A stretch of 64,000 bases of DNA, from positions 986-64,985 of the forward strand of contig JAITER010000020.1 in NCBI GenBank assembly GCA_031281945.1, read 5' to 3'. The translations under genes were made by a program, and so were the position numbers. Shown here piece after piece: positions 15,917 to 42,720 of this stretch (positions within the stretch are counted from its first letter, which is position 1; each line of letters starts with the position of its first letter). The notes beneath the pieces were generated by a model. That model saw only the letters and a list, made by a program, of their open reading frames with translations. It searched no databases and had not been told where the DNA came from. The stretch comes from Spirochaetaceae bacterium (lineage in GTDB: Bacteria; Spirochaetota; Spirochaetia; Treponematales; Breznakiellaceae).

Positions 15917-15950
15917 TATGACAAAAGTATGAAAACGAAATCCTATAGTA

Positions 15951-15966
15951 CCCCCCCCCCCCCCCC
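15951..15966 (+). repeat. Poly-C homopolymer (16 nt)
   Basis: Counted directly: C at 15951-15966, flanked by a at 15950 and ttg at 15967-15969. Confidence 0.97.
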
Positions 15967-18900
15967 TTGAAAGCCTTTTTGCTTTTTTGCGCTTTTATTT
16001 TAATTCTGGCTTTTTCAGGTTGCGGAGCGGAGATAAACCCCGACTTTGAGGGCTTTATAAAAAACGAGTTGCGCAAGGTGCATACCATGACGTACTCGGT
16101 GGTGGACGTAAAAATAACGCTTCCGCCATACCGCGATGTTTACGAAATGGGCGAGGCGTGGGCTCCCGTGAATCCGGATAATCCCGAAGATGGGATTGAG
16201 GCGGCTGTAACGATAGGGGGCGGCACGGTTTATCCGTATTATTTTGAAAGTTTTAATTCCCAGACGAATATTCTCACGATGAAGGGCGAAGACGGTAAAA
16301 GTCTGAGTTTTAGGCTGGACGGCTTTAACACGGCGTCAGAGGGCTCCAGGCGTCTGCGTCTTACGGCGCTGAACGGCGCGGGCGAGGATCTTAAAACGCC
16401 GGTTTTGCCGGCGGATTATCTGTGGAAGTTTGAGAGGGAAGGGGAGACGCTTTTTTGCGATCTTGACTACAAGGTTGTAAAGTTGGGCGGTCTTGACGGA
16501 GATATAGGCCTTTCGTTTTACCTCGGCGGTTTTGGCGGCGTGTACGCTAACGTGGAGCGTTTCGATATAGGGGAGGAGATTGGCGGCGTAGTTAGGGCGG
16601 CTCCGGGTTACAGGCTGAAAGACGGCGGTCTTAAATGCGTGGGCGCTTATCTGAGCGGAGGTATGGATATTTGGGTCGGGGAGGGCGTCTGGAAAAGCGA
16701 GGCGTCGTGGAACGGTCTGGAATATCCGTTTAGCTTCAAGATAAATGCGGAGAACATGAAGATGCTGTGCGATGTTGAGCTTTTCGCCGCGTTTGAGATG
16801 GAGGAGTACGCTATGACGCTTCCCGCCGCCGCAGAGGGCGGAAGGGTCATAGCGGTGGAAGTTAACGAGACGGCTTACGATGCGGGAGAGGGCGGCCTTT
16901 TTCCGGTTTCGTTGCGTATGGGCGACCGTGTAAGGCTTGTCATGAAAGCGGATTCCGGCTGGGTTTTGAGCAAAGACGGCGTCTCTTACGAGGCGGATCG
17001 TTTTGGAAGCTTTACTATACCTTCCGGCTACACGGACGCATCTAGCGGGGATTCCGCCGGCGAGTTTCTTTGCCCCGCTTCGAATATAAAGGTTAGGGTT
17101 GTGTTTGAGGACTTAACTATATCGTATATAACGGCGAGCGGTTATAAGAGTTCGTATGGTTTGTACGACCAGTTTGACGGCGGCGGGATAAGCGTTAACG
17201 GCGTTATGAGCGACCGGAATTCGCAGGTTGTCGATTTAACGGATGAAGCGGAATTTGAATCTGGCGGCTGGAACAATAACGCGGAGCGGCATTTTGACAA
17301 ACCCGGCAAATGGGAAGTGATTGTAAGGGCCCGCGGCAAGATGACGGTGTTTGTTGTGAATGTTTCTGGCGAAGACTTTGTCGCGGCGCGGACTGTGGGA
17401 GGCGCGCGTGTGTTTTACAAGAGCGTGCGGGCCGCTATAGACGCGGCCGCCGCATCTGGAGATGCCTCCTCCACCATATCGCTGGTTTCCGATGTAACGG
17501 TTAAAAACTCCGCCCCCTACGGGCCGAAAGAGGAGGCGCCGGTTTTAATAGGCGGCGGCGTGAATGTGGTGATTAACAGCTCTGGCGGCGAGCGAACCAT
17601 AAAGCTCGCGGACGAGTTTTCCGGGTTTATTTTTAAGGTTGAATCGGGCGCGAGCCTTACGCTGGAAGGCGGGGCGGGGTCGCTAACGCTTTCAGGCGGG
17701 GCGGTTTGGGGGCCGGAGGCGGGGGGCGGCGGCGCCGTGAACCAGGGCTTTTTGTCTTACGGCCCGCTTGTGAGAGTTGAAGGCGGCGTCTTTACATTAA
17801 AAGACGCCGTTGCGTTGCGAAACAATCAATATGCGGGCGGCGATGGCGGCGGAGTCGCCATATTGTATGGGACTTTTAATATGCTGGGCGGCGTCATAGA
17901 GTCCTGCGCGGCGCCCTCAGGCGGCGGGGTTTACTTGATCGACGGCGAATTTAATTTTTCCGGCGGTGAGATTTCCGGCAATTTCGCGGCGAACTCAGGC
18001 GGCGGCTTTTACTTGATCGACGGCGAATTTAACTTTTCCGGCGGTGAGATTTCCGGTAATTTCGCGCTCTCAGGCGGCGGCGTATATAATAGCGGCGGCT
18101 CTTTAAAAATGAACGGCGGCGTTATCTACGGCAATAAAGCGGGAACGGGAAGCGGGGTTTATAACGCCGGCGCTTTTACGGTTATGGGCGGTTCCGCTTT
18201 AATAGCGGCTAACAACGACTTTTACGCTAACGGCAATCACGGAATAAAAGTGGAAGCGCCTCTTGAGGCTCAAAAAGCGGCGGTAATCACGCCGGGAAAT
18301 TACAATGACGCCAATTCAGTTTTGGTGGATGTTGACTCGATTGCGGACGATTTCCAGGCCGCCGCGCAAATAAACAAGTTTTCTTTAACGCCCAATGCGA
18401 GCGGCGAAATCTACTTTTTAAAGAGTTCAAACCCCGGCCGCGGGAAAATCGTTTCCGCCGCATTCTCCCGCGGCTCGGCGGGCCTAACCTTATACTATCA
18501 AGATTTGCAAACGGCGCTTGCCGAAGCCGCTTACTCGGACGAGATTACGGTTCTTAAAAACGCGGAAGATGTCGGGGAGGATGTTTTCATTCAAAAGTTC
18601 ATCACATTAAAACCCGCCGCCGGAAAAAACATTAAACTAACGGCTTCTTTTACGGCGGAAAGCGGCGGCGCTCTGCGGCTTTCGGGGAACTCCGGCGGCG
18701 TTCTAACTTTAACGCCCAGCAACTCCTTCACAAGCGCGGTTTCGGTGGAAAACGGCGGCTCCTTTATACTAGCTGGCGGCGCCGTTATTTCAGGCGGCGC
18801 GGCGCAAAGGTCCGTCTCGCTTGCGCGGATAAACAGCGGCGGGGTTTTTAGAATGGACGGCGGGGAATTGAAAGAAGCCGATGTAGAAGGCTACGGCGGC

Positions 18901-20283
18901 GCCGTTTATAACGAGGCCGGCGGGACTTTTACCATAACAGGCGGCTCCATTTCCGGCGCCAAGGCGGATAGAGACGGCGGCGCGATTTACAACGCCGGGA
19001 CTTTTACAATGACGGGCGGCTCCATTTCCAACAACACCGCATATAGCAACGGCGGGGCGGTTTTCAACGACAATGGTGCGCTTACAATGACGGGCGGCTC
19101 CATTTCCGGCAACAATGCTAGCAGTGGAGGCGGGGCGGTTTACAACAAAAAAGGAACGTTCACAATAAGAAACGGAGAGGTTTCCGCTAACAAGGCCAGC
19201 AATGCCGGCGGGATGGTTTACAACGAAGGCGGGGCGATTGAAATAGCGGGCGGGGCGGTTTCCGGCAACGGAGCCGGCAATGCGGGCGGGGCGGTTTTCA
19301 ACGACAACGGTACGCTTGCAATTACAGGCGGCTCCATTTCCGGCAACACGGCGAATAGCAATGGCGGGGCGGTTTTCAATACTTTAAAATTTACAATGAC
19401 AGGCGGCGAAATCAGCGGGAATACGGCGTCCGTTCAAAACGGCGGCGCGGTTTACAACGCCGGGACTTTTACAATGTCAGACGGCGAAATCAGCGGCGGT
19501 AACAAGGCCAAAAAAAGCGGCGGCGCGATTTACAACGAGGGGACGCTTGAAATTACAGGCGGCTCCATTTCCGGCGCCAAGGCGGATCTAAACGGCGGGG
19601 CGGTTTACAACATCGGCATGTTTACAATGTCGGGCGGGAAGCTTGATAGCAACAGTACCGGAGAAGGCGGCGCGATTTACAACGCCGGGATGTTTACAAT
19701 GACGGGCGGTTTTATTTCCAACAACAACTCCACCAACGGCGGCGGGGTTTTCAACGAAGATGGGACGTTTACCATGGAAGGCGGCGAAATTTCCGGCAAC
19801 AATGCTGGTAGTGGAGGCGGGGGAGTTTACAACAAAAAAGGAACGTTCACAATAAGAAACGGAGACGTCTCCGCTAACAGAGCCAGCAATGCCGGCGGGG
19901 CGGTTTACAACGAAAAGGGTACGATTGAAATGACGGGCGGGGCGTTTTACGAAAACATGGCGTATAACAACGGCGGCGGGGTTTTCAACGAAGATGAGAC
20001 GTTTACCATGGAAGGCGGCTCCATTTTCGGCAACACGGGGTATAACAGCGGCGGGGCGGTTTTCAACACCGGGACTTTTACAATGACAGACGGCGAAGTC
20101 AGCGGCAACACGGCGTATCAAGCCGGCGGCGCGATTTACAACACCAAGACGTTTACAATGACAGGCGGCTACATTTCCGGTAACAGCGCCAGTATAGGCG
20201 GCGCGATTTGCAACAATAGTGGCGCTGAATGCGCCATTGCCGATTACAATTTTATAGCGCCCGACAACGATATTAAATTGTAA
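15967..20283 (+). CDS. Giant surface lipoprotein with polymorphic-outer-membrane-protein (Pmp)-type repeats; probably phase-variable
   Basis: 1438-codon open frame. Lipoprotein signal KAFLLFCAFILILAFSGC. The C-terminal ~600 aa holds more than 20 repeats of GGAIYN/GGAVFN...FTMTGGxISGN, matching Pmp repeat motifs. No C-terminal autotransporter barrel is evident. The only in-frame start is a TTG directly after C16, and the upstream ATG 15929 is out of frame at this tract length. Confidence 0.85.
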   Translation: MKAFLLFCAFILILAFSGCGAEINPDFEGFIKNELRKVHTMTYSVVDVKITLPPYRDVYEMGEAWAPVNPDNPEDGIEAAVTIGGGTVYPYYFESFNSQTNILTMKGEDGKSLSFRLDGFNTASEGSRRLRLTALNGAGEDLKTPVLPADYLWKFEREGETLFCDLDYKVVKLGGLDGDIGLSFYLGGFGGVYANVERFDIGEEIGGVVRAAPGYRLKDGGLKCVGAYLSGGMDIWVGEGVWKSEASWNGLEYPFSFKINAENMKMLCDVELFAAFEMEEYAMTLPAAAEGGRVIAVEVNETAYDAGEGGLFPVSLRMGDRVRLVMKADSGWVLSKDGVSYEADRFGSFTIPSGYTDASSGDSAGEFLCPASNIKVRVVFEDLTISYITASGYKSSYGLYDQFDGGGISVNGVMSDRNSQVVDLTDEAEFESGGWNNNAERHFDKPGKWEVIVRARGKMTVFVVNVSGEDFVAARTVGGARVFYKSVRAAIDAAAASGDASSTISLVSDVTVKNSAPYGPKEEAPVLIGGGVNVVINSSGGERTIKLADEFSGFIFKVESGASLTLEGGAGSLTLSGGAVWGPEAGGGGAVNQGFLSYGPLVRVEGGVFTLKDAVALRNNQYAGGDGGGVAILYGTFNMLGGVIESCAAPSGGGVYLIDGEFNFSGGEISGNFAANSGGGFYLIDGEFNFSGGEISGNFALSGGGVYNSGGSLKMNGGVIYGNKAGTGSGVYNAGAFTVMGGSALIAANNDFYANGNHGIKVEAPLEAQKAAVITPGNYNDANSVLVDVDSIADDFQAAAQINKFSLTPNASGEIYFLKSSNPGRGKIVSAAFSRGSAGLTLYYQDLQTALAEAAYSDEITVLKNAEDVGEDVFIQKFITLKPAAGKNIKLTASFTAESGGALRLSGNSGGVLTLTPSNSFTSAVSVENGGSFILAGGAVISGGAAQRSVSLARINSGGVFRMDGGELKEADVEGYGGAVYNEAGGTFTITGGSISGAKADRDGGAIYNAGTFTMTGGSISNNTAYSNGGAVFNDNGALTMTGGSISGNNASSGGGAVYNKKGTFTIRNGEVSANKASNAGGMVYNEGGAIEIAGGAVSGNGAGNAGGAVFNDNGTLAITGGSISGNTANSNGGAVFNTLKFTMTGGEISGNTASVQNGGAVYNAGTFTMSDGEISGGNKAKKSGGAIYNEGTLEITGGSISGAKADLNGGAVYNIGMFTMSGGKLDSNSTGEGGAIYNAGMFTMTGGFISNNNSTNGGGVFNEDGTFTMEGGEISGNNAGSGGGGVYNKKGTFTIRNGDVSANRASNAGGAVYNEKGTIEMTGGAFYENMAYNNGGGVFNEDETFTMEGGSIFGNTGYNSGGAVFNTGTFTMTDGEVSGNTAYQAGGAIYNTKTFTMTGGYISGNSASIGGAICNNSGAECAIADYNFIAPDNDIKL

Positions 20284-26398: not shown

Positions 26399-27045
26399 GG
26401 AAAACTTTTGGTGGGTCTGGGAGGCCTAGGCCTCCCAGCGGGGGGGGGGGGGTGGCGGAACGTGCTCAAAGTATCGTGCGCACTCACGCCCAGCGGCGCC
26501 GCAAACTTGTGGGGGGTCTGGGAGGCCTAGGCCTCCCAGCGGGGCCGTCCGCCTTTTCTACGGCTGGGGCCATTATCGGGCCCCACGCTGGGCCGCCTGA
26601 TACGGTGGGACGCGCTCAAAGTATCGTGCGCATTCACGCCCAGCGGCGGGGCCGGTCGCCTTCTTTACAGCGGGGGCCATTATCGGGCCACGCGCTGTGC
26701 CGCCTGGGTTGGCGGGCCGCGCTCAAAGTATCGCGCGCATTCACGCCCAGCGGGGGAACTGGGGGCGGAGCCCCCAGCGGCAACCAAGACGCGAGCCGCT
26801 ATCGGCCCCACGCTGTGCCGCCTGGGGTGGGGGCCGCGCTCAAAGTATCGTGCGCACTCACGTCCAGCGGGGCCGGTCGCCTTCTTTACAGCGGGGGCCA
26901 TTATCGAGCCCCCGCTGTGCCGCCTGATACGGTGGGACGCGCTCAAAGTATCGCGCGCACTCACGCCCAGCGGGGGAACTGGGGGCGGAGCCCCCAGCGG
27001 CAACCAAGACGCGAGCCGTCGCCCTGGGTTAGCCGGACGCGGCGC
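26399..27045. repeat. GC-rich mosaic tandem repeat cluster (BIME-like), non-coding
   Basis: A ~37-bp core, GCTCAAAGTATCG(T/C)GCGCA(C/T)TCACG(C/T)CCAGCGG, starts at 26464, 26614, 26721, 26838 and 26941. It is interleaved with three recurring modules. These include the palindromes ctgggaggcctaggcctcccag (twice) and ctgggggcggagcccccag (twice). A G13 tract lies at 26440-26452. Confidence 0.9.
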
Positions 27046-27161
27046 CGCTAGAAAGCGCAAGCGATTGAAATGGAAATCCCGCAGAAAGCCGCTTGCGGCT
27101 TTTGAGGAATTGGAATGAAAAGCGCGGTTTTTGCGTAGCAAAAATGCGTCGGGCGGCGTTG

Positions 27162-40973: not shown

Positions 40974-41633
40974 ATGCTTTTTGGAATTCCAGGGCGCGTT
41001 AAACGGTTCGTGTTTCTTGCGGCGCGTTTTCCGCAGGTTTTTACGAAAGTGGAGCGTATAGAAAACGCCCTGATACATCAACACGCGGCGGTTAGCGGGG
41101 CGGCGGCTGTTACTGTAGAGCGCGGCGGGGCGCGGATTGATTTTTTTAGTTCAGCCTTTCCAAAAAACGTCCCGTTAAATATAAAAAAAATGGACGCGCA
41201 TAAAGTTTTATACAAAAATACGGAAACTCTTACACATAAAAATATTGACGAATTACGGGCGGGGGGGGGGGGGGGCTGTTCCCTTATCGTTGTAGGCGGC
41301 CCGTTTGGCGGCCCCCGGTATTCACGTTCTTTAATTATACATATTGTAAAATGCGGCGTTCCAAAACAGTTTTGTATATTTTTGGATGATGCGGAGAGGC
41401 GCGGCGAAAAAGAGACTATCGCCGAAATTTGCGAGGCGCTGGAATGCGCGGGCGTAAATTTTCTAAAAGCTGAATACAAGGGCGAAAAAAAACAGGCGTA
41501 CGGTTATTTGCTCCCAAGACCTGCGGTTTTTAACGCCGCTCCGTTAGCCGCCGGCAAGCGCCGGCGTTATAAAAAATGTAAATTATTCTTATTCTTATAT
41601 GCGGGCCCGGCTTGCGGCGCAAGTAATTTTTGA
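40974..41633 (+). CDS. Hypothetical protein with an internal poly-G tract
   Basis: 219-codon open frame. AAGGGA lies 6 nt before ATG 40974, and an alternative ATG is at 41190. G15 at 41261-41275 encodes AGGGGG. I recognise no family. It sits immediately upstream of the GT8-like gene. Confidence 0.35.
   Translation: MLFGIPGRVKRFVFLAARFPQVFTKVERIENALIHQHAAVSGAAAVTVERGGARIDFFSSAFPKNVPLNIKKMDAHKVLYKNTETLTHKNIDELRAGGGGGCSLIVVGGPFGGPRYSRSLIIHIVKCGVPKQFCIFLDDAERRGEKETIAEICEALECAGVNFLKAEYKGEKKQAYGYLLPRPAVFNAAPLAAGKRRRYKKCKLFLFLYAGPACGASNF
41261..41275 (+). repeat. Poly-G homopolymer (15 nt) inside ORF 40974-41633
   Basis: Counted directly: G at 41261-41275, flanked by c at 41260 and c at 41276. Confidence 0.97.
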
Positions 41634-41654
41634 CGGATTAAAGGAGCGTGATTT

Positions 41655-42458
41655 ATGGCTTTTAAGTATTTATATGTGCTGGTGAGCGCGGATGCGGATT
41701 TTTATTACGAGCAATTTTACATCTCCGCATTTTCGCTTAAAATGAGGGTTCCGGGGGCCTTTGTTTCGGTTTTAACGGACGACTCTACGGCCCCCCGTTT
41801 GAGCGAACTCCGTGTTGCGGGGGGGGGGGGGGGCGATCCTTTAATAGACGAAATAGTCGTTCCAGACATACCGGCGGACGTTCCGCAAATGATTAGATCG
41901 CGTTTTTTGAAGACGTCCATGCGCAAACATATAGCGGGCGATTTTTTGTATATAGACGCTGATACAGTTGTGGCGGAAGATTTGTCGTGTATAGAGGATA
42001 TAAACGCGGATTTGGCGATGGCTTTGGATATGCACGGCGCGGACGACGAAAAGTGGCTTATAAACGTGAATGAAAAAAAGTATTCGTTTTATAATTCTTT
42101 GGAAGCTCCGCTTGGCGAGTATTATAACAGCGGCGTTATATTGTGCCGGGACGTCCCGCGAAATCATGTTTTTTTTAAAGACTGGCACAAAAACTGGCTG
42201 GACTCTGTTTCCATGGGTGTGCCTATTGATCAGCCTTCTTTGCACAAAACAAACGCCGGCGCCGGGTTCGTTATTAAAGAATTGGACGGAATATGGAACT
42301 GCCAAATAAAAAGATCCCACATTTTAGCGTATCTGGCCGCCGCTAAAATAATTCATTATTTTGGAAGCTGGGGGGGGGGTTTCCGTTGTATAAACTGGCT
42401 TCGGAAGAAAATTTTAACTTCGTTAAAAAAACAAACTCGCTCTCCGCCGAATGTTTAA
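41655..42458 (+). CDS. GT8-like glycosyltransferase (nucleotide-diphospho-sugar transferase fold), phase-variable
   Basis: SD AAGGAG lies 8 nt upstream. YVLVSADADFYY, a DxD motif in FLYIDADTVV and YNSGVILCRD resemble LPS/LOS GT8 enzymes. It contains G15 (in frame) and G10 near the 3' end. At G10 the frame ends at 42458. At G11 it would continue to 42673. Confidence 0.75.
   Translation: MAFKYLYVLVSADADFYYEQFYISAFSLKMRVPGAFVSVLTDDSTAPRLSELRVAGGGGGDPLIDEIVVPDIPADVPQMIRSRFLKTSMRKHIAGDFLYIDADTVVAEDLSCIEDINADLAMALDMHGADDEKWLINVNEKKYSFYNSLEAPLGEYYNSGVILCRDVPRNHVFFKDWHKNWLDSVSMGVPIDQPSLHKTNAGAGFVIKELDGIWNCQIKRSHILAYLAAAKIIHYFGSWGGGFRCINWLRKKILTSLKKQTRSPPNV
41819..41833 (+). repeat. Poly-G homopolymer (15 nt) in the 5' third of the GT8-like gene
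   Basis: Counted directly: G at 41819-41833. It is read as GCG GGG GGG GGG GGG GGC (AGGGGG). Confidence 0.97.
42370..42379 (+). repeat. Poly-G homopolymer (10 nt) near the 3' end of the GT8-like gene
   Basis: Counted directly: G at 42370-42379. Confidence 0.97.
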
Positions 42459-42720
42459 AACTGCTGGAAGAACCTAAAAGAGCTTTTGCGGACGTTATGG
42501 TTTTCCCTGTGGAAAAGACAAAGCGCGAAAGAAAAAAAAAGGAAAAAATTTTAATGTTATGCCTAAAGAGTATAATGCCCCACGGTCTTTATCTTTTGTA
42601 TGTGAATATAATGGAAAACATAAGAGATAAAGCAAGGACTAAAAAAACGATTGAGAGCTTGGGGGCGCGATAAAAGCGCCCGTTGCATTACGCCGGCAAG
42701 CGCCGGAACCCACGATGAAA

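What the first reader, a model, noticed from the sequence alone, without database searches (positions are those of the whole stretch)
41261..42673. Three poly-G tracts within 1.1 kb of a glycosyltransferase locus, including a 3' tract that toggles between two alternative C-termini
What the sequence shows:
- G15 at 41261-41275 lies inside the hypothetical ORF 40974-41633.
- G15 at 41819-41833 spans codons 55-60 of the GT8-like gene and is currently in frame. G14 would give a stop after 3 codons. G16 would give a stop after about 20 codons.
- G10 at 42370-42379 lies near the 3' end of the same gene. At G10 the protein ends ...SWGGGFRCINWLRKKILTSLKKQTRSPPNV (267 aa).
- At G11 or G8 it would instead read ...SWGGGFPLYKLASEENFNFVKK... 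through the separately listed ORF 42386-42673. That gives about 339 aa with a basic and hydrophobic tail.
- The longer frame ends inside a hairpin, gggcgcgataaaagcgccc (42663-42681).
- Both G15 tracts have the same codon context (GCG GGG x4 GGC) and a similar upstream peptide: ELRA versus ELRVA.

Established knowledge: poly-G tracts in LOS or capsule glycosyltransferases such as lgtA, lgtC, lgtG and cgtA drive phase-variable glycan structures.

Inference: this is a multi-switch contingency locus able to produce OFF, short and long enzyme forms. I do not know of a C-terminal isoform switch by a second tract in the same gene being commonly described.
Basis: partly seen in the sequence, partly recalled or inferred. 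Interest (0 to 1): 0.8.

Follow-up and report, generated by a model that had tools for sequence, protein, structure and literature searches.

The report
Poly-G switches in a glycosyltransferase gene
An uncultured gut spirochaete carries a sugar-transferase gene with two long runs of G that probably let it switch the enzyme on, off or to a shortened form by slippage, which is a well-known bacterial trick seen here in a new organism.

Summary
All three poly-G runs are real and lie at the stated coordinates: G15 at 41261-41275, G15 at 41819-41833 and G10 at 42370-42379.

The gene 41655-42458 is a true GT8-fold glycosyltransferase. Its relatives are 320-340 aa long. The frame reached with G11 or G8 (ORF 42386-42673) aligns with the conserved family C-terminus. 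So the 339-aa "long form" is simply the ancestral full-length enzyme. The assembled 267-aa product is a frameshift truncation that keeps the catalytic domain but loses a conserved helical subdomain and the tail.

The 5' G15 encodes a four-glycine insertion that none of the 20 aligned homologues has.

ORF 40974-41633 is not a sound gene. It is a decayed remnant of a methyltransferase-like family: it lacks the 5' part, lacks motif I, and is frameshifted at an A8 run.

Tract-length variation could not be tested, because no reads or close relatives were available.

Verdict: this is a plausible slipped-strand contingency locus of a known kind. The closest parallels are poly-G lgtC in Neisseria and the "C-terminal phase variation" described in Helicobacter canadensis. 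It is a new member of that kind, not a new mechanism.

The parts
40974..41633 (+). Annotated ORF (LBC53_01980, 219 aa). It is a decayed remnant of a methyltransferase-like gene family.
   Evidence: phmmer over 1.84e9 representative proteins gives 233 hits. ORF residues 31-174 match the C-terminal ~140 aa of ~245-aa proteins, and C-terminal domains of GT1/GT2/GT8/TupA fusion proteins. Alignment A2 shows that the first ~90 aa and motif ILEFGLGQSS are missing, and that G replaces the nearly invariant D of VDGPFG.
41261..41275 (+). Poly-G tract 1 (G15). It encodes GGGGG in a variable linker of the remnant gene.
   Evidence: Homology continues in one frame on both sides of the tract. The Logan contig L002 reads G15 plus C and then ends.
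41485..41492 (+). A8 run at which the remnant gene is frameshifted relative to its family.
   Evidence: tblastn places the body of the gene in frame 2 (41070-41492). The family C-terminus TVICSQDLRFLTPLR followed by a stop is in frame 3 (41500-41547), with 80% identity to P0123.
41549..41564 (+). 16-nt palindromic element CGCCGGCAAGCGCCGG, copy 1. It lies just after the family-frame stop (TAG 41545-41547) of the remnant.
   Evidence: Only two copies occur in the window.
41655..42458 (+). GT8 glycosyltransferase CDS as assembled (LBC53_01985, 267 aa). AAGGAG lies 8 nt upstream of the ATG, and the DxD motif is at 41955-41963.
   Evidence: Pfam PF01501 scores 27.5 bits against a cut-off of 24.3. 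464 homologues were found. The AlphaFold2 model has pLDDT 82.9. Foldseek matches glycogenin, LgtC 1g9r and GlyE.
41819..41833 (+). Poly-G tract 2 (G15), codons 55-60, currently in frame. It is the predicted 5' ON/OFF switch.
   Evidence: One search gives the frame effects. In alignment A1 the tract is a 4-residue glycine insertion absent from all 20 homologues. The local model confidence dips to pLDDT 62, consistent with a loop.
42370..42379 (+). Poly-G tract 3 (G10), codons 247-250, in a variable loop just past the end of the Pfam GT8 domain. It is currently out of frame with the family C-terminus.
42380..42673 (+). Frameshifted 3' part of the GT8 gene (listed separately as ORF 42386-42673). 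It encodes the conserved C-terminal helical subdomain and an amphipathic tail.
   Evidence: K258 is invariant and L271 and P274 are nearly invariant in A1. The family HMM scores it at 22.8 bits against at most 7.3 bits for shuffles. Residues 251-280 have pLDDT of about 89-94. The frame stays open for 97 codons.
42663..42681 (+). Hairpin GGGCGC-GATAAAA-GCGCCC, with the full-length stop TAA (42671-42673) in its loop.
   Evidence: Read from the sequence. No T-run follows it, and the terminator scan does not list it.
42691..42706 (+). 16-nt palindromic element CGCCGGCAAGCGCCGG, copy 2. It lies 18 nt after the full-length stop of the GT8 gene.

Best explanation
The locus is a small two-gene glycan-modification islet. 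It lies between clpA and a convergent ABC-transporter binding-protein gene, in an uncultured Spirochaetaceae genome.

Its GT8 glycosyltransferase gene has acquired two lineage-specific poly-G runs in surface loops. Slipped-strand mispairing during replication is expected to change their lengths (inferred).

- The 5' run (G15) acts as a classical translational ON/OFF switch.
- The 3' run (G10) sits at the junction between the catalytic domain and a conserved C-terminal helical and amphipathic region. It decides whether that region is attached (G11, G8 or G14, the ancestral full-length 339 aa) or replaced by a short out-of-frame tail (G10, 267 aa; G9 or G12, about 245 aa).
- In the sampled population the majority allele is 5'-ON but 3'-truncated. 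Because the lost region contains invariant residues, I judge this most likely a null or strongly impaired state rather than an equal alternative isoform.

The upstream ORF with the third G15 is a decayed methyltransferase-like gene. Its tract is a relic, not a working switch.

Shown: the tracts, the frames, the homology, the GT8 fold and the decay of ORF1. Inferred: hypermutability, reversibility and the phenotypic effect.
For: - The tracts are real and non-random, and a second assembler reproduces their lengths.
- GT8 identity is supported by Pfam, by an invariant DxD motif and by fold matches to LgtC and glycogenin.
- The homologues are 320-340 aa long and align through the shifted frame.
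- The window protein keeps all 36 invariant family columns on both sides of tract 3, and the shifted frame stays open for 97 codons. So the only lesion is the tract length, as expected for a reversible or recent switch.
- Both coding tracts sit in loops of variable length, and tract 2 is an insertion that no homologue has.
- A C16 run in the same window sits at the 5' end of a large lipoprotein gene and is also out of frame with its ATG.
- Poly-G runs interrupt GT2, Wzy, MBOAT and acyltransferase genes next to family homologues in other gut bacteria.
- Published precedents exist for 3' poly-G tracts that switch C-termini and fuse adjacent ORFs (PMC2823697; PMC5084427).
Against: - No tract-length variation has been observed. 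Only one sample carries this sequence, and the nearest relative is 47% identical.
- The Logan assembly reads through tracts 2 and 3 without a break, so there is no sign of heterogeneity there.
- The neighbouring gene is clearly decaying, so the G10 frameshift could be part of the same decay.
- The function and surface target of the enzyme are unknown.
- The islet is not part of a larger glycan cluster.
Confidence: 0.6

Rival explanations
1. Decaying islet. Both genes are pseudogenes in the making. The G10 frameshift is a fixed inactivating mutation at a mutational hotspot, not a switch in use, and the G runs have no adaptive role.
For: ORF1 has lost its 5' part and motif I, carries a substitution of the nearly invariant Asp, and is frameshifted at an A8 run. 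The GT8 gene is out of frame with its conserved C-terminus. The islet is isolated between housekeeping genes. The ORF1 family is not a conserved neighbour of this GT8 family.
Against: Apart from the tract length, the GT8 gene is intact. All invariant residues are kept, the shifted frame has no stop in 97 codons, and the 5' tract is in frame. Uninterrupted G15 runs are not expected to persist long without turnover (inference).
Confidence: 0.2
2. True isoform switch. The 267-aa product is a functional enzyme with a different basic amphipathic tail (WLRKKILTSLKK). The 3' tract would then toggle localisation or acceptor use rather than ON/OFF.
For: Tract 3 lies 8 residues past the end of the Pfam GT8 match, so the whole catalytic domain is retained. 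The out-of-frame tail is basic and amphipathic (sequence). From my own knowledge, not tested here: LgtC tolerates deletion of its C-terminal membrane-association tail. C-terminal phase variation is a proposed mechanism elsewhere.
Against: The lost segment includes invariant K258, nearly invariant L271 and P274, and helices 251-272 modelled at pLDDT of about 93, so it appears to be part of the fold. No homologue among the 120 listed ends near residue 267. The alternative tail has no relatives against which to test conservation.
Confidence: 0.13
3. Assembly or sequencing artefact. The homopolymer lengths are mis-called, and the real gene is a fixed, in-frame, full-length one.
For: The source is a metagenome-assembled genome built from short reads. 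The Logan assembly breaks right after tract 1 and inside the C16 run, and one contig begins with an unexplained C25.
Against: Two different assemblers give identical G15, G15 and G10. The flanks align continuously with homologues, so the tracts are not chimeric joins. A one-base consensus error at a G10 run would be unusual for Illumina data (own knowledge).
Confidence: 0.05

Closest known systems
Neisseria lgtC (and lgtA, lgtG), the poly-G phase-variable LOS glycosyltransferases. LgtC is a GT8 enzyme (PDB 1g9r).
   Same: It shares the GT8 fold; 1g9r is among the top fold matches. It has a DxD motif. It has a coding-region poly-G run whose length sets the reading frame. It has a C-terminal helical subdomain followed by a basic and hydrophobic tail (the lgtC biology is from my own knowledge).
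   Different: Sequence identity is only about 18% in the structural alignment. The host is an uncultured Spirochaetaceae genome, not a pathogen. This gene has two tracts rather than one. The acceptor glycan is unknown. Switching has not been demonstrated.
C-terminal phase variation in Helicobacter canadensis, for example HCAN_0660/0661 (Snyder et al. 2010, PMC2823697).
   Same: A 3' poly-G tract of G10 or longer gives three alternative C-termini. In one frame the CDS fuses with the next annotated ORF: 104 aa against 14 or 25 aa there, and 89 aa against 17 or 4 aa after the tract here.
   Different: In H. canadensis the tract lengths were seen to vary in the reads. Here, homology shows that the fused frame is the ancestral full-length protein, so the "switch" is better read as intact versus truncated.
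Neisseria meningitidis repeats in the 3' part of genes (NMB1998, NMB0039; PMC5084427).
   Same: A repeat in the 3' part of a gene puts the C-terminal peptide out of frame while most of the protein is still translated.
   Different: The protein families are different, and each gene has a single repeat.
Helicobacter pylori futC and futA/B fucosyltransferases, and Campylobacter jejuni poly-G LOS and capsule genes (own knowledge, not checked here).
   Same: These are glycosyltransferase genes split into two annotated ORFs by hypermutable repeats. futC carries more than one hypermutable element in a single gene.
   Different: They belong to different GT families and organisms, and they are experimentally verified.

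Membership tests
Glycosyltransferase family 8 (Pfam PF01501, GT-A fold, retaining) | A significant match to the family profile above the curated threshold. | tested here: met
   PF01501 scores 27.5 bits against a cut-off of 24.3, E 2.8e-6, residues 98-238. Most of the listed homologues also carry PF01501.
Glycosyltransferase family 8 (Pfam PF01501, GT-A fold, retaining) | A DxD metal and nucleotide-sugar binding motif. | tested here: met
   D101 and D103 (IDADT) are invariant across 21 sequences.
Glycosyltransferase family 8 (Pfam PF01501, GT-A fold, retaining) | A GT-A fold similar to solved GT8 structures. | tested here: met
   The AlphaFold2 model has pLDDT 82.9 and pTM 0.80. Foldseek matches glycogenin, LgtC 1g9r, GlyE and the A. 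prevotii GT8 3tzt with probability 1.00 and E of 1e-7 to 1e-8.
Glycosyltransferase family 8 (Pfam PF01501, GT-A fold, retaining) | Sugar-transfer activity, with identified donor and acceptor. | not testable with these tools
   Requires biochemistry.
Simple-sequence-repeat contingency (phase-variable) locus | An uninterrupted repeat, long enough to be hypermutable, located in the ORF or promoter. | tested here: met
   G15 and G10 lie inside the GT8 coding sequence. Published phase-variable tracts are typically G8 or longer (Table 2, gives ranges of G8-G17).
Simple-sequence-repeat contingency (phase-variable) locus | A change in repeat length switches the reading frame between intact and truncated products. 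| tested here: met
   Conceptual translations of all lengths, together with homology of the shifted frame.
Simple-sequence-repeat contingency (phase-variable) locus | Repeat length varies within a population or between close strains. | tested here: inconclusive
   No close relative exists in the protein, metagenome or genome collections; the best is 45-47% identical. Only one sample holds the sequence. The Logan assembly reads through tracts 2 and 3 unchanged, but breaks at tract 1 and at the C16 run. No reads were available.
Simple-sequence-repeat contingency (phase-variable) locus | The repeat is a lineage-specific addition rather than a conserved coding feature. | tested here: met
   Tract 2 is a 4-residue insertion absent from 20 homologues. 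Tract 3 lies in a loop of variable length.
Simple-sequence-repeat contingency (phase-variable) locus | A reversible phenotypic switch, such as a change in a surface glycan. | not testable with these tools
   The organism is uncultured.
Class I SAM-dependent methyltransferase-like family (for ORF 40974-41633) | An intact glycine-rich SAM-binding motif I and a full-length domain. | tested here: not met
   Motif ILEFGLGQSS and the ~90 residues before it are missing. The nearly invariant D of VDGPFG is G. The family C-terminus is in another frame. The family itself links to O-methyltransferases only weakly (3ntv at E 0.0015; sub-threshold Pfam hits).

The most novel reading that the evidence does not exclude
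The two tracts form a combinatorial switch within one GT8 gene. The 5' run sets ON or OFF. The 3' run lies exactly at the boundary between the catalytic domain and the C-terminal subdomain. It would toggle between a full-length enzyme and a still-active catalytic core carrying a different basic amphipathic tail. That would change where the enzyme acts or what it glycosylates. This would be a domain-boundary isoform switch in a non-pathogenic gut symbiont, rather than simple gene inactivation.
Probability: 0.12. Interest if true: 0.55.

Novelty: new member of a known kind. Interest (0 to 1): 0.3.

Why it matters
If the tracts do vary, an uncultured gut spirochaete uses the same stochastic glycan-switching strategy as Neisseria, Campylobacter and Helicobacter. 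From the relatives and the accession series, it is probably a termite-gut symbiont. In such a host the likely selective pressures are phages, protists or host immunity rather than human adaptive immunity.

There is also a practical lesson for annotation. The two "hypothetical" ORFs 41655-42458 and 42386-42673 are one gene split at a homopolymer, and ORF 40974-41633 is a pseudogene remnant.

The mechanism itself is textbook, so the conceptual gain is small.

Tried and rejected
- **Close relatives for tract-length comparison.** I searched 5.8e9 proteins, metagenome contigs and GTDB genomes. Nothing is closer than 45-47% identity, so no comparison is possible.
- **ORF1 as an orphan.** The word-indexed search found only the protein itself. 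The exhaustive phmmer search overturned this with 233 relatives.
- **ORF1 as a duplicate of the GT8 N-terminus.** I reject this, because each peptide context is inherited from its own family: NIDEL in the methyltransferase-like family and the conserved R53 in GT8.
- **ORF1 family as a conserved neighbour of this GT8 family.** tblastn found no hits in 145 homologue loci.
- **Poly-G tracts inside the GT8 homologues themselves.** None were found. The tracts in those loci lie in neighbouring genes.
- **Intrinsic terminators and promoters.** The scan found nothing above the shuffle expectation, and the 42663-42681 hairpin lacks a T-run.
- **Literature on two tracts in one gene.** The phrase search returned only G-quadruplex papers.
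- **Source of the run.** A literature search for SRR14710905 found nothing. The link to the termite-gut MAG project (PMC9137090) is inferred only from locus-tag and accession series.
- **Logan contig carrying the gene next to the G13 run.** The exact protein is not on record.

Full report
**Observation**

A first-order Markov model of the window expects 0.15 G-runs of 10 or more, and 3e-4 of 15 or more, in 64 kb. Three such runs within 1.1 kb is therefore not chance. The only other long G/C runs in the window are C16 at 15951-15966 and G13 at 26440-26452.

All frame predictions were reproduced.
- Tract 2 is in frame at G15, G12 and G18. G14 gives AIL then a stop. G16 gives 20 codons then a stop.
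- Tract 3 gives 267 aa at G10. It gives 339, 338 and 340 aa at G11, G8 and G14, and 245 and 246 aa at G9 and G12.

The window matches an NCBI metagenome-assembled genome labelled Spirochaetaceae bacterium. The locus tags are LBC53_01980 and LBC53_01985, and the proteins are MDR2601212.1 and MDR2601213.1.

An independent k-mer assembly of run SRR14710905 (Logan) gives identical G15 and G10 at tracts 2 and 3. It also gives G15 at tract 1.

**The glycosyltransferase**

ORF 41655-42458 passes the Pfam GT8 threshold, at 27.5 bits against a cut-off of 24.3. It has 464 relatives in the protein collection, nearly all 300-350 aa long. They come mostly from termite-gut and rumen Treponema, Bacteroidales, Fibrobacter and Lachnospiraceae, and the closest is only 45% identical.

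I aligned the conceptual G11 protein (339 aa) with 20 relatives. This gave three results.
- The DxD motif (D101, D103) and 34 other columns are invariant.
- Tract 2 corresponds to a four-residue glycine insertion that none of the 20 relatives has.
- The frame entered after tract 3 at G11 or G8 aligns with the family C-terminus. K258 is invariant there, and L271 and P274 are nearly invariant.

An HMM built from the 20 relatives alone scores the separately listed ORF 42386-42673 at 22.8 bits. The match is at the correct profile positions (249-328). The best of 200 shuffles scores 7.3 bits.

An AlphaFold2 model has mean pLDDT 82.9. Residues 251-280, which hold helices 251-260 and 265-272, have pLDDT of about 89-94. 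A low-confidence long helical tail follows. The glycine insertion lies in a loop with pLDDT 62. Foldseek matches glycogenin, LgtC (1g9r), GlyE and other GT8 structures.

So the "long form" is the ancestral full-length enzyme. The assembled 267-aa product keeps the whole Pfam catalytic domain, which ends at residue 238. It replaces a conserved C-terminal subdomain and the tail with 17 out-of-frame residues.

**The upstream ORF**

ORF 40974-41633 looked like an orphan in the word-indexed search. The exhaustive phmmer search found 233 relatives. Residues 31-174 match the C-terminal ~140 aa of ~245-aa proteins. They also match C-terminal domains of large GT1, GT2, GT8 and TupA fusion proteins.

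The family has no Pfam model. It gives only weak methyltransferase signals: Methyltransf_24, IRX15/GXM and Cons_hypoth95 below threshold, and the O-methyltransferases 3ntv and 5zw3 at E 0.0015 and 0.059.

The window copy departs from the family in four ways.
- It lacks the first ~90 residues.
- It lacks the motif ILEFGLGQSS.
- It has Gly in place of the nearly invariant Asp of VDGPFG.
- Its family C-terminus, TVICSQDLRFLTPLR followed by a stop, lies in a different frame (41500-41547). This implies a frameshift at the A8 run 41485-41492.

It is therefore a decayed gene. Tract 1 lies in a variable linker and keeps the homologous frame on both sides. However, it is unlikely to control anything functional. 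The family is not a conserved neighbour of this GT8 family, with 0 hits in 145 loci.

**Mechanism**

The best-supported reading is a slipped-strand contingency gene with two tracts. The 5' G15 gives classical translational ON/OFF. The 3' G10 lies at the boundary between the catalytic domain and the C-terminal subdomain, and decides whether the conserved C-terminus is attached.

The sampled majority allele is 5'-ON and 3'-truncated. The gene is otherwise undamaged: all invariant residues are kept and the shifted frame stays open for 97 codons. The frameshift is therefore recent or reversible.

Whether the truncated protein is null or an altered isoform cannot be settled here. The conservation of the lost segment makes loss of function more likely.

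Supporting context:
- The C16 run in the same window lies between an ATG and the lipoprotein signal peptide of a 1438-aa glycine-rich repeat protein. It is out of frame with that ATG, and C14 or C17 would restore the frame.
- In loci of family homologues from other gut bacteria, G runs of 9 or more lie 16 of 16 times on the coding strand of the GT gene. They interrupt GT2, Wzy_C, MBOAT and Acyl_transf_3 genes.

**What is missing**

No tract-length variation has been seen. Only one sample holds this sequence, and no relative is closer than 47% identity.

The Logan assembly reads through tracts 2 and 3. It breaks one base after tract 1 and inside the C16 run. One contig begins with an unexplained C25 followed by slightly divergent sequence. 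This could reflect length heterogeneity or merely poor reads, so I treat it as inconclusive.

**Rivals**
- A decaying islet with a fixed frameshift (confidence 0.2). The state of ORF1 favours this. The otherwise intact GT8 gene argues against it.
- A true isoform switch with a functional short form (0.13).
- An assembly artefact (0.05). Two concordant assemblers, and flanks that align continuously with homologues, argue against it.

**Comparison with what is known**

Poly-G control of a GT8 enzyme is the textbook case of Neisseria lgtC (own knowledge), and its structure is among the fold matches.

C-terminal switching by 3' poly-G tracts has been described in Helicobacter canadensis, including fusion of a CDS with the next ORF at HCAN_0660/0661 (PMC2823697). 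It has also been noted for N. meningitidis NMB1998 and NMB0039 (PMC5084427).

What is new is the host, an uncultured and probably termite-gut spirochaete, and the presence of two tracts in one GT8 gene.

**Verdict**

This is a new member of a known kind, of modest interest (0.3).

Noticed in passing
window 15929-16030 (C16 at 15951-15966): A C16 run lies between an ATG (15929) and the lipoprotein signal peptide LKAFLLFCAFILILAFSGC of a 1438-aa glycine-rich repeat protein (15967-20283). At C16 the ATG frame stops immediately. C14 or C17 would give an in-frame MKTKSYSTPPPP-lipoprotein. The Logan contig ends inside this run. This is probably a second contingency gene.
   Followed up: partly
window 26400-27100 (G13 at 26440-26452): A G13 run lies in non-coding DNA beside a tandem array of about 107 bp in 4 copies (26539-26973). 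The array has GGGAGGCCTAGGCCTCCC palindromes. Its function is unknown.
   Followed up: no
window 41549-41564 and 42691-42706: The 16-nt palindromic element CGCCGGCAAGCGCCGG occurs only twice in 64 kb. Each copy lies just after the family-frame stop codon of one of the two islet genes. It may be a shared 3' hairpin or a cassette boundary.
   Followed up: partly
L001 1-36 (Logan SRR14710905_1199), equal to window 41254-41289: This independent contig begins with C25 followed by GTCCCTTATCG, where the window has G15 followed by CTGTTCCCTTATCG. The upstream contig L002 stops at window 41276. This is unexplained. It could be read artefacts at the homopolymer or heterogeneity.
   Followed up: partly
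L081 2418-2428; L095 1284-1296; L133 6377-6388; L054 1446-1455; L075 1005-1017: In flanks of GT8-family homologues from other gut bacteria (Treponema, Lachnospiraceae, Acidobacteriota and an unnamed metagenome contig), G10-G13 runs occur in five neighbouring genes. They frameshift a GT2, a Wzy_C and an MBOAT gene. One sits near the 5' end of an Acyl_transf_3 gene, and one lies in frame in a Methyltransf_11 gene. All 16 runs of G9 or longer lie on the coding strand of the GT gene.
   Followed up: partly
window 41070-41547; proteins P0122-P0270: The ORF1-related domain family has 233 hits and no Pfam model. It occurs alone (~245 aa) or as the C-terminal domain of GT1, GT2, GT8 and TupA multidomain proteins. 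Conserved motifs are ILEFGLGQSS and VDGPFGxxHYSR. It shows weak similarity to O-methyltransferases. It appears to be an uncharacterised glycan-modifying domain.
   Followed up: partly
window 41485-41492: An A8 run marks a frameshift in the methyltransferase-like remnant. With A7 the frame would read EYKGEKNRRTVICSQDLRFLTPLR then a stop, matching the family C-terminus.
   Followed up: yes
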